Shown one piece after another: positions 20,216 to 23,685 of a stretch of DNA of 34,403 nt (position 1 is its first letter; each line of letters starts with the position of its first letter). Source of the DNA: a virus; the UHGV virus genome UHGV-0101604. The stretch is one strand, 5' to 3'. Both the position numbers and the translations under genes were made by a program. Below the pieces are notes generated by a model. It was not told the origin of the DNA. It saw only the letters and a program-made list of their open reading frames with translations, and ran no database searches.

Positions 20216-21277
20216 ATGTCACAGAACTGGATGAGACATTTCGAGCTGCAGCTTGTGGACGGGAACGGTCAGGGAATTGAGCTAAGTGATTTTAAAGTCA
20301 CCTTTACGATCGACTGGTTCAACATCAGCAGCGCGTCCCGGGTAGGGACTATCAAAATTTATAACCTCTCGGCAGATACTGTGAACCGAATCACCGGGCA
20401 GGAGTTTTCGAAAGTGCGTCTGATTGCCGGTTACGACGGTATCGCGCCGGAGGTGTCGGCAAGCGACGTCGGGACCGTGCGGGAAGTTGACGCGGCGGAC
20501 GTGGGTCAGAGTGATGGCCGCAACTACGGACTGATTTTCAGCGGTGAAATTCGCTACTCGGTCACAGGAAAAGACAGTCCGGTTGATTCCTACGTCCTGA
20601 TTCAGGCAGCAGATACTGATCTGGCTTTTGCCACCAGTATAACCTCACAGACGCTGGCTGCCGGTTACACGGTCGCTGATGTAAACCGTGCGCTGATGAA
20701 AGACTTCGAAGCCAAAGGCGCGACCGAAGGCCTGACGCCTGAAATGCCTGCTACTGTATTCCCCCGGGGGCGGGTACTCTTTGGCATGACGCGGCATCTA
20801 ATGGATAACGTAGCCGGGCAATGTGGCGCAACATGGCAATTCGTGGACGGTCAGCGCCAGATGGTGGCGAATAACGAATATGTTCATGAAGCGATTGTGC
20901 TCAACAGCGCTACCGGGCTTATTGGCATGCCGCAGCAGACTATCGGTAACGGCGTAAACGTCCGCGCGCTTATTAATCCGAACATCCGGGTTAACGGACT
21001 TATTCAGCTGGATCAGGCTTCCGTGTATCGTACCGCCTTGTCGAACAACGATATTGCGATGGCTGGTGGTCAGATCACCGACCAGAACACGGATGGAAAT
21101 ATCACGCTAAGCGGCACCACATCGCAGCCTGCCAGCATCGCAACGGATGGCGTTTATATTGTGCGCGGGATTATGTACACTGGCGACACAAGGGGCCAGG
21201 CGTGGTACATGGATATGATGTGCGAAGCGCGTGGCGCGGCGGATCTGTATACGCGATCGGCTTTGCAAAGGGGATGA
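20216..21277 (+). CDS. Baseplate hub-like / late tail protein
   Basis: 353-aa ORF with RBS GGAG; located between tape measure and baseplate spike genes. Confidence 0.65.
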   Translation: MSQNWMRHFELQLVDGNGQGIELSDFKVTFTIDWFNISSASRVGTIKIYNLSADTVNRITGQEFSKVRLIAGYDGIAPEVSASDVGTVREVDAADVGQSDGRNYGLIFSGEIRYSVTGKDSPVDSYVLIQAADTDLAFATSITSQTLAAGYTVADVNRALMKDFEAKGATEGLTPEMPATVFPRGRVLFGMTRHLMDNVAGQCGATWQFVDGQRQMVANNEYVHEAIVLNSATGLIGMPQQTIGNGVNVRALINPNIRVNGLIQLDQASVYRTALSNNDIAMAGGQITDQNTDGNITLSGTTSQPASIATDGVYIVRGIMYTGDTRGQAWYMDMMCEARGAADLYTRSALQRG

Positions 21278-21280
21278 GCA

Positions 21281-21622
21281 ATGAGGGGTATTATTTTTCT
21301 GTTAGCTGTTTTTTCTGCGTGCAGCGCGTGGGCGGATGGCTTCACGGTTAAATGCGGTGGCTACACTATGGTTGCAAACCAGGGCGAGTTATCGACTATC
21401 AACGGTGAAAGAGTTACCTCTCAAAAAATCACCGAACTGGGTACCAATGGTTTGAAAGTAGACATGGGGCTTATGCCTGCCAAAGACGGTAACAACTACG
21501 GCTTTGAATACATTCGTCGCCCTGGCACCGAAACGCGTTTCCTGAACGTCCAGCTTCTGCAGAACAGCATGGATGCGCCTAAAATCATCGGATCATTCCC
21601 TTGTAAAAAGGCGTTACGCTAA
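21281..21622 (+). CDS. Small secreted protein (cleavable signal peptide), moron-like
   Basis: N-terminus MRGIIFLLAVFSACSAWA-DG is a classic Sec signal peptide with A-x-A cleavage site; 113 aa; inserted in the tail module; no structural-protein features recognised. Confidence 0.6.
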   Translation: MRGIIFLLAVFSACSAWADGFTVKCGGYTMVANQGELSTINGERVTSQKITELGTNGLKVDMGLMPAKDGNNYGFEYIRRPGTETRFLNVQLLQNSMDAPKIIGSFPCKKALR

Positions 21623-21717
21623 AGTTTGATGTCAATCTTCCGAGATGAGCGCTTTAAGGTTGACGAGATATTGTTCAAAGTTCACAATCACAATCCCTTT
21701 AGTAAGAGAAATAATCC

Positions 21718-22491
21718 ATGGCGGCAGGCATCCCATTAGAAAAAGCGCAAAAATATATTGAACAATTCAATGCGCTTCTATTGGATAGGGAAAGTTTAGA
21801 TCCCTTCACTGAAAAGAAAATTCGAGAGGAACTTTCTGTCTCTCCAACGCCTGCTACCAACATTGCACTATCTTATCTGGATGCAATAACCGGAAAGATT
21901 GAAAGCGCGTTACGTTATCTCAGGATAAGCCTAGAAGTAAACGATGTAACGTTGGCAATGCACTATCATCACATTTTAATTAATACATTTAGCTATAATG
22001 AACTCAAGGATGTCTATGTCCCGCTGGCAAAGAAGTATCGGACAAAACTCTTTAGTCACAACGCATACAGTTGGGCGTACCGTTGCGGCGAGCGTGAACA
22101 GTTAAAATTTTATATGGAAGAGCACATTAAGCTTCTTTCTGAATCAGAAGGCAGGAGTAATGCTATGAAGCACAAAGAAGAACTCCTTGCAGAAATGGAT
22201 AATTTCTATAGCGCCACACAGTGCTCGAAGGAACAGTTCCAGACCTTAGCATCCATAATCTGGGGCTTGCTAAGTGAATACAAGGCTACGACAGGTTTCG
22301 TTCAGCTTAGTGGAAGCGGTTGCTATGTTGTTGATATTAAAAATCTTGAGCCTAAAACTATTGCCAAAATGAACTTCGACTTGGCTGATAGAGTCTGCGC
22401 TGAATCTAAACTGGATGATTGTTCCCTGTTAGCTAGATTTACCTCTCCGCGTCAGTTGCATACGGGGGTGAGCTACCATGTCGGTAACTAG
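21718..22491 (+). CDS. Hypothetical 257-aa protein, first gene of an AT-rich two-gene cassette
   Basis: ATG at 21718 after an AT-rich intergenic region; mostly helical-looking sequence with no motif I recognise; its 3' end overlaps the start of the next gene by 14 nt. Confidence 0.7.
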   Translation: MAAGIPLEKAQKYIEQFNALLLDRESLDPFTEKKIREELSVSPTPATNIALSYLDAITGKIESALRYLRISLEVNDVTLAMHYHHILINTFSYNELKDVYVPLAKKYRTKLFSHNAYSWAYRCGEREQLKFYMEEHIKLLSESEGRSNAMKHKEELLAEMDNFYSATQCSKEQFQTLASIIWGLLSEYKATTGFVQLSGSGCYVVDIKNLEPKTIAKMNFDLADRVCAESKLDDCSLLARFTSPRQLHTGVSYHVGN

Positions 22492-22873
22492 CAATCAGAT
22501 TCTCGATACCGCTCGATTATGTCTGTCTGAAAATATTGAGAGTGGATTTCGAAGCGCTATCTCAAGGGCGTATTACAGTATGTTACATGAGTCTATTAGC
22601 TCACTTACTGCCATACCGCATTTTACCCATGAGCATCACAAAAATACTGTGGGTTATATGTCAACGCCCTCAGAGTGCAAATCAGAGCCATACCCGACAA
22701 ATACACTGAAATCCCTAGCTTTCGTACTTCGCCAGTGGCGGGATGCTAGAAATGAAGCTGACTATGATCTGACGAATGTGACTGTTTCGAAAGAGATGGG
22801 ACAGGATGCAATCGAGGCTGCTGAACTCTATTTTGAGCGCTGGGAACAGCTAAAGTCTGCTAGAGTTTCATGA
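22478..22873 (+). CDS. HEPN-like small protein (candidate RNase/toxin), second gene of the cassette
   Basis: 131 aa, RBS GGGGGTGAG; N-terminal helix signature SRAYYSMLHES and C-terminal RDARNEADYD resemble conserved HEPN-fold motifs (Rx4-6H-type signature and variants), from memory; followed by a strong terminator. Confidence 0.65.
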   Translation: MSVTSNQILDTARLCLSENIESGFRSAISRAYYSMLHESISSLTAIPHFTHEHHKNTVGYMSTPSECKSEPYPTNTLKSLAFVLRQWRDARNEADYDLTNVTVSKEMGQDAIEAAELYFERWEQLKSARVS

Positions 22874-22890
22874 ATAAAATTAACGTTATC

Positions 22891-22914
22891 AAACCCGCTT
22901 CGGCGGGTTTTTTG
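22891..22914 (+). terminator. Rho-independent terminator ending the two-gene cassette
   Basis: AAACCCGC-TTCG-GCGGGTTT hairpin followed by TTTTG, 18 nt after the stop of the HEPN-like gene. Confidence 0.75.
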
Positions 22915-22932
22915 CTTTCTGGAGCCTACTAA

Positions 22933-23685
22933 ATGGCAGTATCTGACCAGACCCGCAGCGGCGACCTTGCCGAAACATTCAAATCTGAACGGGAAACAAC
23001 AAAGAACCAGATCCGTGTCGCCTTGCCTGGCATTATTCAGTCATTCGATCCTGATGCGGTGACGGCAGTTGTGCAGCCTGCTATCCGTTCGGTTGAAAAG
23101 GATAATGACGGCAACCGCATTACCAAAAATTACCCATTGCTGGTGGATGTGCCAGTGGTATTCCCGCGCGGCGGAGGATGTACGCTAACGTTCCCAGTTA
23201 AAGCCGGTGATGAATGTTTGGTGATTTTTGCCGATCGTTGTATTGATTTCTGGTGGCAGAGTGGCGGGATACAGGAGTCGGTCGATGACAGAATGCATGA
23301 TTTATCGGATGCGTTTTGTATTGTCGGTCCCCAGTCGCAGGCAAGGAAGATTAGCGGTATTAATACCAGTGCCACACAGTTGCGTAGTGATGACGGCAGC
23401 ACCTATTTTGAGCTTAATCCTGATACCAGGAAAATTAAAATTGTCGCTCCAGGTGGTCTTGATGTGGTTGCCCCTCTGGCTGATTTTTCTGAGAAAGTAA
23501 CCATTCATGGCCTGTTAACCTGGATGGGGGGCATGGTGGGGTCTGTGGTTTCTGGTGTGGCTTCAAAAATCACTGGTGCTGTTGAGTTTTTGGGGAGCGT
23601 GAAGGCTAATGGCAAGCCAATCGATGATACACACACTCATGGTGGTGTTCAGCGTGGTGGAAGCAGTACCGACGGGGTAAACTGA
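22933..23685 (+). CDS. Baseplate assembly protein V-like (central spike)
   Basis: 250 aa with RBS GGAG; C-terminal HTHGGVQRGGSSTDG segment typical of gpV-type spike proteins; followed by gpW- and gpJ-like genes. Confidence 0.8.
   Translation: MAVSDQTRSGDLAETFKSERETTKNQIRVALPGIIQSFDPDAVTAVVQPAIRSVEKDNDGNRITKNYPLLVDVPVVFPRGGGCTLTFPVKAGDECLVIFADRCIDFWWQSGGIQESVDDRMHDLSDAFCIVGPQSQARKISGINTSATQLRSDDGSTYFELNPDTRKIKIVAPGGLDVVAPLADFSEKVTIHGLLTWMGGMVGSVVSGVASKITGAVEFLGSVKANGKPIDDTHTHGGVQRGGSSTDGVN

What the first reader, a model, noticed from the sequence alone, without database searches (positions are those of the whole stretch)
21623..22916. AT-rich two-gene cassette (unknown 257-aa protein + HEPN-like 131-aa protein) inside the baseplate gene block: candidate undescribed defense or toxin-antitoxin-like module
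Seen in sequence: between the hub-like gene (ends 21277) and the gpV-like spike gene (starts 22933) there is an insert with clearly lower GC than the surrounding tail genes. It carries two ORFs whose coding regions overlap by 14 nt (22478-22491), implying coupled expression, and ends in a strong terminator (22891-22914). The second protein has SRAYYSMLHES near its N-terminus and RDARNEADYD near its C-terminus, which I recognise as HEPN-fold-like signatures; HEPN proteins are typically RNases used as toxins or effectors in abortive infection and TA systems. The first protein matches nothing I know and lacks the GS...DxD motif of the nucleotidyltransferase partners usual for HEPN toxins, so this is not a classical HEPN/MNT pair. 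A self-contained accessory operon in a tail module is the classic moron signature. Inference: a prophage-encoded module, possibly protecting the lysogen from superinfection.
Basis: partly seen in the sequence, partly recalled or inferred. Interest (0 to 1): 0.85.

Follow-up and report, generated by a model that had tools for sequence, protein, structure and literature searches.

The report
Mobile prophage TPR–HEPN two-gene cassette
A 1.3-kb, self-contained two-gene cassette sitting inside the tail genes of an E. coli prophage pairs a small HEPN-fold (RNase-type) protein with an unusual TPR-repeat partner, and looks like an undescribed toxin–antitoxin-like or anti-phage module, though its function has not been tested.

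The parts
21610..21717 (+). Left junction of the variable segment and the 5' untranslated region of the cassette
   Evidence: Similarity to relatives with other cargo stops at 21609/21610. The 95-nt intergenic region lies between the stop of the 113-aa backbone ORF (21622) and A's ATG.
21660..21688 (+). Promoter-like site: TTGACG, 17 nt, CACAAT, with the -10 element ending 29 nt before A's ATG
   Evidence: 9 of 12 consensus matches. It is weak on its own: 76 of 500 shuffles score as well. But a TTGAC[TG]-17/18-[TC]AnAnT site sits at the same distance (29-32 nt) in 8 of 11 cassette copies, including the siphovirus slot.
21718..22491 (+). Gene A, 257 aa: TPR array (about residues 7-139), long helix 146-167, small alpha-beta-beta-alpha-beta domain (171-242), and a conserved but disordered C-terminal tail (243-257). 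Predicted antitoxin/sensor partner.
22464..22491 (+). Translational-coupling region: the SD-like GGGGGTGAG (22464-22472) and the 14-nt A/B overlap (22478-22491)
   Evidence: Read from the sequence. The A and B genes overlap by 10-35 nt in 9 of 10 pairs measured.
22478..22873 (+). Gene B, 131 aa: minimal HEPN-domain protein of the AF0298/UPF0332-like (HEPN-T) type. Predicted RNase toxin/effector.
22565..22588 (+). B residues R30-H37 (RAYYSMLH), the conserved helix-2 motif
   Evidence: R30, Y32, Y33 and H37 are invariant across the broadened B alignment. The motif aligns to SRAYYAM in the solved HEPN protein 9xbd.
22634..22639 (+). [quoted passage not shown] H54 is the candidate alternative catalytic histidine.
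   Evidence: H54 is invariant in the broad family. PMC3710099 describes such an alternative His for AF0298-like HEPN-T proteins.
22739..22765 (+). B residues R88-Y96 (RDARNEADY), the helix-3 motif that takes the place of Rx4-6H
   Evidence: R91, D95 and Y96 are invariant in the broad family. The motif aligns to RNRSDYD of 9xbd, and entry 9xbc carries F in place of that Y.
22891..22920 (+). Intrinsic terminator (AAACCCGC-TTCG-GCGGGTTT followed by a T-run). The right junction of the variable segment lies inside it (about 22901).
   Evidence: Terminator scan. Junction position. Equivalent hairpins follow B in L005, L012, L014, L017, L022 and L028.

Best explanation
The segment from about 21610 to about 22920 is a horizontally mobile transcription unit: promoter, two translationally coupled genes, terminator. 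It is carried as accessory cargo (a moron) in a polymorphic slot of the baseplate operon of a SEN34/Brunovirus-like E. coli prophage.

Gene B encodes a minimal HEPN-domain protein of the AF0298/UPF0332-like type. Its likely active site combines R91 (with D95 and Y96) on helix 3 and H54 from the helix 2-3 insert, and like other HEPN RNases it would probably act as a dimer. I infer that it is an RNase toxin or effector.

Gene A encodes a non-enzymatic partner that takes the place of the MNT nucleotidyltransferase usually paired with this HEPN type. It has a TPR array, a small alpha/beta domain and a conserved disordered C-terminal tail. I infer that A binds B and keeps it inactive, in the manner of a type II antitoxin. 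Its TPR surface may sense a trigger, such as a protein of an infecting phage, and release B to cut RNA. That would stop growth of the infected cell and protect the lysogen population.

Shown here: the anatomy, the folds, family placement, the A-B pairing in every locus examined, the mobility of the pair, and its location in cargo and defence hotspots. Inferred: RNase activity, toxicity, neutralisation by A, the trigger, and the defence phenotype.
For: B is HEPN, closest to AF0298.
- The B profile hits the solved HEPN protein 9xbd at E=2.6e-6.
- The invariant residues R30, Y32, Y33, H37, H54, R91, D95 and Y96 fit the alternative active site described for AF0298-like HEPN-T proteins.

A looks like a binder, not an enzyme.
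- No polar residue set is conserved among 60 diverse members.
- The tail at 245-253 is conserved but has pLDDT below 50.

The two genes are paired in every case examined.
- 21 of 21 loci (including the window) with an A gene had a B gene directly downstream.
- Five further loci (L024, L026, L028, L029, L031) showed the same at greater divergence.
- The two genes overlap by 10-35 nt in 9 of 10 pairs.

The pair is mobile and sits in cargo sites.
- Myovirus hub-spike slot.
- Two siphovirus tail slots.
- Next to the integrase of a P2/186-like prophage.
- Between Q and the lysis genes, beside HicAB and a methyltransferase.
- The P2 gpA-gpQ interval, an experimentally validated defence hotspot.

Other support.
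- The slot is polymorphic: the hub gene occurs in 335 complete E. coli genomes and the cassette in 27, and relatives carry other cargo.
- A promoter-like site and a terminator travel with the pair, and its GC is low in every context.
- Phage YP3 carries an orphan A-family gene with no B. No B without an A was seen. That is the asymmetry expected if A is the antidote.
- LsoA/RnlA is a precedent for a HEPN toxin neutralised by a non-MNT protein; this rests on my own knowledge of that system.
Against: - There are no experimental data on toxicity, RNase activity or phage resistance.
- The canonical Rx4-6H motif is absent. The activity of AF0298-like HEPN-T proteins is itself only predicted in the 2013 survey.
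- PADLOC, Pfam and NCBIfam give no support.
- The promoter-like site in this window is weak (9 of 12; 76 of 500 shuffles match it). The cassette lies in a late operon on the same strand, so it could be expressed late in lytic growth and not in the lysogen.
- A has no recognisable DNA-binding domain for the autoregulation typical of type II antitoxins.
- The A-B complex could not be modelled here.
- The orphan-A argument rests on a single phage.
- Location in hotspots is guilt by association. Such hotspots also carry anti-defence and other cargo.
Confidence: 0.55

Rival explanations
1. It is a selfish addiction module only. A and B form a toxin-antitoxin pair that stabilises the prophage or the cassette through post-segregational killing, with no role in anti-phage defence.
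For: The gene order is that of a TA pair, with the putative antitoxin first and overlapping the toxin gene. The pairing held in every locus examined and the pair is mobile. An orphan A occurs in YP3. No defence-database hit exists.
Against: The pair sits repeatedly in sites known for phage-exclusion cargo, including the validated P2 gpA-gpQ hotspot. A 257-aa TPR partner is much larger than a simple neutralising antitoxin needs to be, which suggests a sensing role. Many prophage TA modules have turned out to be defensive. The two readings are not mutually exclusive.
Confidence: 0.15
2. It is a non-toxic accessory or counter-defence pair. B would be a catalytically inactive HEPN domain that binds a nucleic acid or nucleotide, and with A it would serve the phage. 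Possible roles are neutralising a host or rival-prophage system, or regulating the phage life cycle.
For: The canonical Rx4-6H motif is missing. The cassette lies co-oriented in a late operon and could be transcribed with the tail genes. A-family proteins can occur alone in a phage. Hotspots also carry anti-defence genes.
Against: R91, H54, D95, Y96, R30 and H37 stay invariant to about 30% identity. That is hard to explain for a mere scaffold and matches the proposed alternative HEPN active site. The pair has its own promoter-like site and terminator. It occurs next to an integrase and in the P2 old/tin locus, both typical of lysogen-expressed cargo.
Confidence: 0.2
3. A and B are virion or tail-assembly accessory proteins, for example a TPR chaperone with a small baseplate-associated protein.
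For: In this window and several relatives the pair lies inside tail-gene operons on the same strand. TPR proteins can act as chaperones.
Against: Only 27 of 335 E. coli genomes with this hub gene have the pair. Close relatives assemble tails with unrelated cargo or an orphan A in that slot. The pair occurs with myovirus-type and siphovirus-type tails. It also occurs outside tail modules: next to an integrase, downstream of Q, and between gpA and gpQ. B's fold is HEPN, not a known virion fold.
Confidence: 0.03

Closest known systems
AF0298 (PDB 2hsb), a UPF0332 / AF0298-like HEPN-T protein (Anantharaman et al. 2013, PMC3710099)
   Different: It is an archaeal protein, only 20% identical. The HEPN-T clade is described as typically partnered with MNT nucleotidyltransferases. 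B's partner is a TPR protein, and the pair is carried by temperate phages of gamma-proteobacteria.
HepT/MntA (HEPN/MNT), type VII toxin-antitoxin systems (e.g. SO_3166/SO_3165; PMC7641770, PMC11586414)
   Different: A has no MNT fold or GSx10DxD motif, so neutralisation by AMPylation is not expected. B lacks Rx4HxY. HepT belongs to the DUF86 (HEPN-M) clade, not the AF0298-like clade.
RnlA/RnlB and LsoA/LsoB(Dmd): HEPN toxins with non-MNT protein antitoxins
   Different: RnlA and LsoA are large multi-domain toxins with a canonical HEPN motif and small antitoxins. Here the toxin is minimal (131 aa) and the partner is the larger protein (257 aa, TPR).
HepS (Gifsy-1 solo HEPN abortive-infection protein; PMC13043305) and the Tha system mentioned in that paper
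   Same: Both are prophage-encoded HEPN effectors carried as accessory cargo. They stay inactive until a protein of the infecting phage activates them. This is the mechanistic model proposed here.
   Different: HepS is a single protein with a canonical RX4-6H motif that senses the trigger itself. Here a separate TPR protein would do the holding and sensing. No sequence relationship was found.
HEPN families linked to TPR/Sel1 partners in the 2013 survey (LA2681 with TPR; AbiU2 with Sel1 repeats)
   Same: They share the architectural theme of a HEPN domain fused to, or in an operon with, a helical-repeat protein.
   Different: Those are different HEPN families that carry the canonical Rx4-6H motif. 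No homology to A or B was detected, since PADLOC includes Abi models and gave no hit. None has been tied to this phage-borne cassette.

Membership tests
HEPN superfamily (fold level) | Four-helix up-and-down bundle that matches solved HEPN domains | tested here: met
HEPN superfamily (fold level) | Canonical Rx4-6H motif at the end of helix 3 | tested here: not met
   B has R91-N-E-A-D95-Y96 with no His at +5 to +7. This is the known AF0298-like/AbiV-like exception described in PMC3710099.
Pfam HEPN (PF05168) | Match to the Pfam model at the gathering threshold | tested here: not met
   hmmscan of B gives no Pfam hit at E<=1. Only a few distant family members carry a precomputed PF05168 hit, and one of these is marked faint.
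AF0298-like HEPN-T (UPF0332) | Arg of the motif retained, His replaced, and a second conserved His in the helix 2-3 insert | tested here: met
   R91 and H54 are invariant in 18 sequences down to 30% identity. H54 lies in the 43-73 insert of the model.
AF0298-like HEPN-T (UPF0332) | Significant sequence-profile similarity to family members | tested here: met
   B-family profile against PDB: 9xbd E=2.6e-6, 9xbc 1.1e-5, 2hsb 2.1e-3, with SRAYY and RNxxDY aligned. Some sources name homologues UPF0332 or HEPN.
HEPN/MNT toxin-antitoxin (type VII, and HEPN-T/MNT operons) | Adjacent minimal nucleotidyltransferase partner (GS...DxD, pol-beta-like fold) | tested here: not met
   A has no NTP-transferase Pfam, NCBIfam or PADLOC hit. 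Its model is a TPR array plus an alpha-beta-beta-alpha-beta domain. The local GSG is not conserved, and no acidic pair is conserved.
HEPN/MNT toxin-antitoxin (type VII, and HEPN-T/MNT operons) | Toxin neutralised by AMPylation of a Tyr next to the active-site motif | not testable with these tools
   Y96 is invariant, but no transferase is encoded in the cassette. This needs biochemistry.
Type II-like toxin-antitoxin module | Two small co-transcribed, overlapping genes with a conserved partnership | tested here: met
   The overlap is 14 nt here and 10-35 nt in 9 of 10 pairs. An A gene is followed by a B gene in all 26 loci examined, including the window.
Type II-like toxin-antitoxin module | Toxin arrests growth and the antitoxin neutralises it by binding | not testable with these tools
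   Indirect evidence only: an orphan A exists and no orphan B was seen, and A has a conserved disordered C-terminal tail.
Type II-like toxin-antitoxin module | Antitoxin carries a DNA-binding domain for autoregulation | tested here: not met
   No HTH, RHH or AbrB hit in Pfam or NCBIfam. The C-terminal domain has no consistent match.
Phage moron (autonomous accessory unit) | Present or absent between otherwise homologous phage genomes, atypical composition, own promoter and terminator | tested here: met
   The flanks are conserved and the cargo is replaced in YP3, vB_EcoM-689R2 and SEN34. The cassette occurs in 27 genomes against 335 with the hub gene. GC is 0.43 against 0.51. A positionally conserved promoter-like site and a terminator accompany it.
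Known anti-phage defence systems (PADLOC-DB v2.0; DefensePredictor DS-28/DS-29) | Match to a model or sequence of a described system | tested here: not met
   PADLOC gives no hit for A, B or distant partners. A's RefSeq accession is absent from the held parts of the DefensePredictor supplements. The DS-28 and DS-29 HEPN-system proteins score negative bits against the A and B HMMs.
TPR repeat proteins (for A) | Helical-hairpin repeat array similar to solved TPR domains | tested here: met

The most novel reading that the evidence does not exclude
A is a dedicated TPR sensor that holds an AF0298-type HEPN RNase inactive and releases it on binding a protein of an invading phage. This would be the first HEPN-T toxin controlled by a repeat-protein sensor and not by MNT-mediated AMPylation, and the first activity shown for the alternative His/Arg HEPN active site. 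Orphan A genes in phages such as YP3 would then be counter-defence decoys that re-capture the toxin.
Probability: 0.2. Interest if true: 0.75.

Novelty: new variant of a known kind. Interest (0 to 1): 0.58.

Why it matters
HEPN RNases are among the most common effectors in bacterial immunity and toxin-antitoxin systems. The AF0298/UPF0332-like branch, however, has no demonstrated activity, and it has been discussed almost only as a partner of MNT nucleotidyltransferases.

This cassette shows that the branch has acquired a different partner that was present in every copy examined: a TPR protein. It also shows that the pair spreads as a compact unit of promoter, two genes and terminator. It moves between the cargo hotspots of unrelated temperate phages in Enterobacterales, Vibrio and Aeromonas.

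If it is a defence system, it adds a small, easily cloned, two-protein sensor/effector family that is missing from the PADLOC-DB v2.0 (2023), Pfam and NCBIfam libraries searched here. It would also give a direct test of the proposed alternative HEPN active site.

Finally, it marks the hub-spike junction of SEN34-like prophages as a cargo hotspot worth mining.

Tried and rejected
- **AlphaFold database search.** A Foldseek search of A against afdb50 was not available. The isolated C-terminal domain of A therefore could not be classified by fold. Sequence profiles of that domain hit only designed helical proteins in PDB and scattered single Pfam hits.
- **Locus retrieval with broad alignments.** The search for related loci failed with the broad A alignments because they have no conserved stretch. 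The narrow alignment found only 4 genomes.
- **A's C-terminal domain as a degenerate MNT: rejected.** The topology is alpha-beta-beta-alpha-beta, the GSG is not conserved, and there is no conserved acidic pair.
- **A Zn-binding site from C169/C227/C235: rejected as a family feature.** The cysteines are conserved only in the close subfamily.
- **A second 131-aa + 261-aa ORF pair at 29289-30477.** It looked like a reversed copy of the cassette, but the 261-aa ORF is a DDE transposase of an IS element and the 131-aa ORF has no similarity to B.
- **B apparently split in Klebsiella phage ST405-OXA48phi1.3.** The ORF is intact and the GenBank record is mis-annotated, so this is no evidence of toxin decay.
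- **The 170-aa cargo of vB_EcoM-689R2.** It contains RNNLFHG, an Rx4H-like motif, but no tool confirmed a HEPN relationship.
- **Literature.** No paper was found for PDB 9xbd/9xbc. The Brenes & Laub 2025 paper is not held. A's RefSeq accession does not occur in the text library.
- **DefensePredictor DS-28 (a 163-aa HEPN nuclease plus a 252-aa protein).** I considered it as a possible prior description, but it is unrelated.
Full report
**Observation**

The window carries two + strand ORFs, A (21718-22491, 257 aa) and B (22478-22873, 131 aa). They overlap by 14 nt. A GGGGGTGAG Shine-Dalgarno-like run lies 5 nt before B's ATG.

GC drops to 0.38-0.45 over 21400-22800, against 0.50-0.57 in the upstream tail genes. 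The cassette is 0.43 and its flanks 0.51. An 8-bp hairpin followed by a T-run lies at 22891-22910.

The flanking genes are:
- a baseplate hub (20216-21277; phrog_196, weak PF22759);
- a conserved 113-aa signal-peptide protein (21281-21622; phrog_3443);
- a membrane-puncturing spike (22933-23685; PF18352 at 4e-44, plus the Apex motif).

The one omission is that the 113-aa gene lies between the hub gene and the insert and belongs to the backbone.

**It is an insert in a polymorphic slot**

The identical 1294-nt segment occurs in 27 of 5,426 complete E. coli genomes, always on the chromosome. The hub gene occurs in 335 genomes.

Related phages share the flanks but carry other cargo:
- Yersinia phage YP3 has one 266-aa gene.
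- Escherichia phage vB_EcoM-689R2 has one 170-aa gene.
- Salmonella phage SEN34 (Brunovirus) has a 140-aa protein that looks secreted or membrane-bound (hydrophobic N-terminus, read by eye).

BLASTN places the breakpoints at 21609/21610 and about 22901, which is inside the terminator hairpin. For YP3 the right breakpoint is 22933.

**Protein B is a HEPN domain of the AF0298/UPF0332 type**

Pfam, PADLOC and NCBIfam give no hit. PHROGs gives phrog_5176, of unknown function.

A profile of 22 homologues hits solved HEPN proteins: 9xbd (E=2.6e-6), 9xbc (1.1e-5) and AF0298/2hsb (2e-3). The SRAYY and RNxxDY motifs are aligned in the 9xbd and 9xbc alignments.

B lacks the canonical Rx4-6H motif. It has R91-N-E-A-D95-Y96. 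Anantharaman et al. 2013 describe exactly this exception for AF0298-like HEPN-T proteins: the Arg is kept, the His is lost, and a second conserved His comes from the insert between helices 2 and 3 (PMC3710099). In a broadened alignment reaching 30% identity, the invariant residues include R30, Y32, Y33, H37, H54, R91, D95 and Y96. H54 lies in that insert.

The wider B family has 433 cluster representatives of about 125-137 aa, from Enterobacterales, Vibrio and Aeromonas. A few carry a precomputed PF05168 hit or the names "HEPN domain-containing" or "UPF0332 family".

**Protein A is a TPR protein with an unclassified C-terminal domain, not an MNT**

Pfam, PADLOC and NCBIfam give no hit. PHROGs gives phrog_17809, of unknown function.

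The model is confident, with pLDDT 91.5. It shows eight TPR-like helices (7-139), a long helix (146-167) and an alpha-beta-beta-alpha-beta domain (171-242). The last ten residues have pLDDT below 50. That tail is nevertheless conserved in the close family: R245, L247, H248, G250 and Y253.

Across 60 diverse members, only structural positions are conserved at 60% or more: the MNxxLA motif with N219, F241, and TPR-type small or hydrophobic residues. No conserved polar set would suggest catalysis. The C-terminal domain has no consistent PDB or Pfam match. The GS...DxD motif of nucleotidyltransferases is absent, and the local GSG is not conserved.

**The pair is present together in every locus and is mobile**

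HMMs of A and B were searched against six-frame ORFs of every locus fetched. They found a B gene directly downstream of an A gene in 21 of 21 sequences, including the window. Among these were P0074's locus (27% A identity) and a very distant member, P0090 (17% identity).

Five further loci gave the same result: L024, L026, L028, L029 and L031. The genes overlap by 10-35 nt in 9 of 10 pairs measured.

The contexts differ widely:
- the myovirus hub-spike slot in E. coli, Enterobacter, Yersinia and one unnamed assembly (L022);
- between the tail-tube/chaperone genes and the tape-measure gene of Klebsiella siphovirus-type prophages, including phage ST405-OXA48phi1.3;
- just upstream of lambda-like gpM/L/K/I genes in a metagenome contig;
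- beside the integrase of a P2/186-like prophage;
- between antiterminator Q and the lysis genes of a lambdoid prophage, next to a methyltransferase and HicAB;
- downstream of Q in Proteus;
- between replication gene A and portal gene Q of a Vibrio P2-like prophage.

The last interval is the old/tin locus. Rousset et al. 2022 showed it to be a hotspot of anti-phage systems (PMC9122126).

Occurrence with both contractile and non-contractile tails, and outside tail modules altogether, rules out a structural or assembly role tied to one tail type.

**The cassette carries its own signals**

In 8 of 11 copies the best sigma-70-like site is TTGAC[TG], then 17-18 nt, then [TC]AnAnT. Its -10 element ends 29-32 nt before A's ATG, even though the spacers have diverged. 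The same element is present in the Klebsiella phage.

The site in this window (21660-21688, TTGACG-17-CACAAT) is weak alone: 76 of 500 shuffles score as well. The positional conservation is what gives it weight.

Hairpins of the form AACCCGCC...GGCGGGTTTTT follow B in six copies. Cassette GC is 0.38-0.44 in every context, and the flanks are 0.48-0.56.

**Mechanism (inferred)**

By analogy with HEPN toxins generally, B should be a dimeric RNase. Its site would be built from R91 (with D95 and Y96) and H54.

A occupies the upstream, overlapping position typical of antitoxins, and it has no enzymatic signature. It carries a protein-binding TPR surface and a conserved disordered tail, a feature that many antitoxins use to occlude their toxin. 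I therefore propose that A sequesters B and that a phage-derived ligand of the TPR domain releases it.

The orphan A-family gene in phage YP3 fits A as the antidote. It scores E=8e-17 against the family HMM and 96% by hhalign, and no B follows it. No orphan B was seen. This rests on one case.

Precedents exist for prophage HEPN effectors that are held inactive until a phage protein binds: HepS and Tha (PMC13043305). RnlA and LsoA show that HEPN toxins can have non-MNT protein antitoxins; that point rests on my own knowledge of those systems, though LsoA is among the structural hits.

**Comparison and novelty**

B is a member of the HEPN superfamily and of its AF0298-like branch, by fold, by profile and by the variant active-site pattern. 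It does not reach the Pfam PF05168 threshold.

The module is not a HEPN/MNT system, because the defining MNT partner was tested for and is absent.

It is not in PADLOC-DB v2.0. A's accession is absent from the text library and from the held parts of the DefensePredictor supplements. The validated HEPN systems DS-28 and DS-29 of that study are unrelated.

HEPN-plus-TPR/Sel1 operons were noted for other HEPN families in 2013. The theme is therefore known, but this family and this pairing are not described in anything I could search.

I rate it a new variant of a known kind. It is of moderate to good interest as a compact and testable candidate defence or toxin-antitoxin system. All functional claims are still untested.

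Noticed in passing
window 21281-21622: A 113-aa protein with an N-terminal signal peptide (MRGIIFLLAVFSACSAWADG; phrog_3443) sits between the baseplate hub and the cargo slot in all myovirus-type relatives. One RefSeq record names its homologue 'STY1065/STY2022 family phage-derived protein'. A secreted or lipoprotein-like gene of unknown function inside a baseplate operon is unexplained. The left recombination junction falls in its last codons.
   Followed up: partly
window 22478-22873; L004 6869-7311; L028 4770-5165: Gene B is not annotated in RefSeq E. coli records: every listed record shows a single CDS under the cassette, and BH100N has a gap there. In GenBank MK416008 (Klebsiella phage ST405-OXA48phi1.3) two short wrong-frame CDSs are annotated, although the 131-aa ORF is intact.
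   Followed up: yes
L001 3077-3877 (Yersinia phage YP3, PV092592.1): The cargo in the same hub-spike slot is a 266-aa member of the A (TPR) family with no HEPN gene behind it, only 124 nt before the spike gene. It could be an orphan antitoxin or an anti-defence decoy.
   Followed up: partly
L002 2897-3409 (Escherichia phage vB_EcoM-689R2, ON470582.1): The alternative cargo in this slot is a 170-aa protein (phrog_19013, unknown function) containing RNNLFHG, which looks like a canonical HEPN Rx4H motif. No Pfam, PADLOC, NCBIfam or PDB sequence match confirmed this.
   Followed up: partly
L003 2928-3350 (Salmonella phage SEN34): The alternative cargo is a 140-aa protein with an N-terminal hydrophobic segment (phrog_13160; weak match to a colicin lysis-protein signal region). 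It may be a secreted or membrane superinfection-exclusion-type protein.
   Followed up: no
window 20216-21609 versus E. coli genomes: Of the 335 genomes with the hub gene, only 138 match more than 80% of the hub plus 113-aa region. Many matches stop at hub nucleotide about 1031, so the hub C-terminus and the 113-aa gene are themselves mosaic.
   Followed up: partly
window 27790-33613: The distal end of the prophage carries other cargo. There is an acyltransferase (27790-28839, - strand; PF01757). There is an IS element whose 261-aa ORF is a DDE transposase (29289-30477). There is a GtrII-type glucosyltransferase (30867-32327, - strand) followed by two more - strand ORFs (32331-33613) that may be gtrB and gtrA. 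Together these look like O-antigen-modifying, serotype-converting genes.
   Followed up: partly
A family: window residues 1-10, C169, C227, C235: The N-terminal peptide MAAGIPxEKA is nearly invariant in the close A subfamily but modelled with low confidence. Three cysteines are conserved in the close subfamily only. The roles of both features are unknown; a degron, a toxin contact or a metal site are possibilities.
   Followed up: partly
PDB 9xbd / 9xbc (hits): The closest solved sequence relatives of B are two entries named 'HEPN domain-containing protein'. In the aligned region shown they differ only by Y to F in the RNRSDY motif, the equivalent of B's Y96. Someone has evidently probed this tyrosine, but no paper was found in the library.
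   Followed up: partly
L026 6700-8470; L031 5169-7049: The neighbours of distant A-B pairs are other accessory modules. One locus has an N6/N4 DNA methyltransferase plus HicA/HicB. The other has a ParB_N protein plus a PAPS-reductase/DUF3440 protein, which looks IbrAB-like.
   Followed up: no
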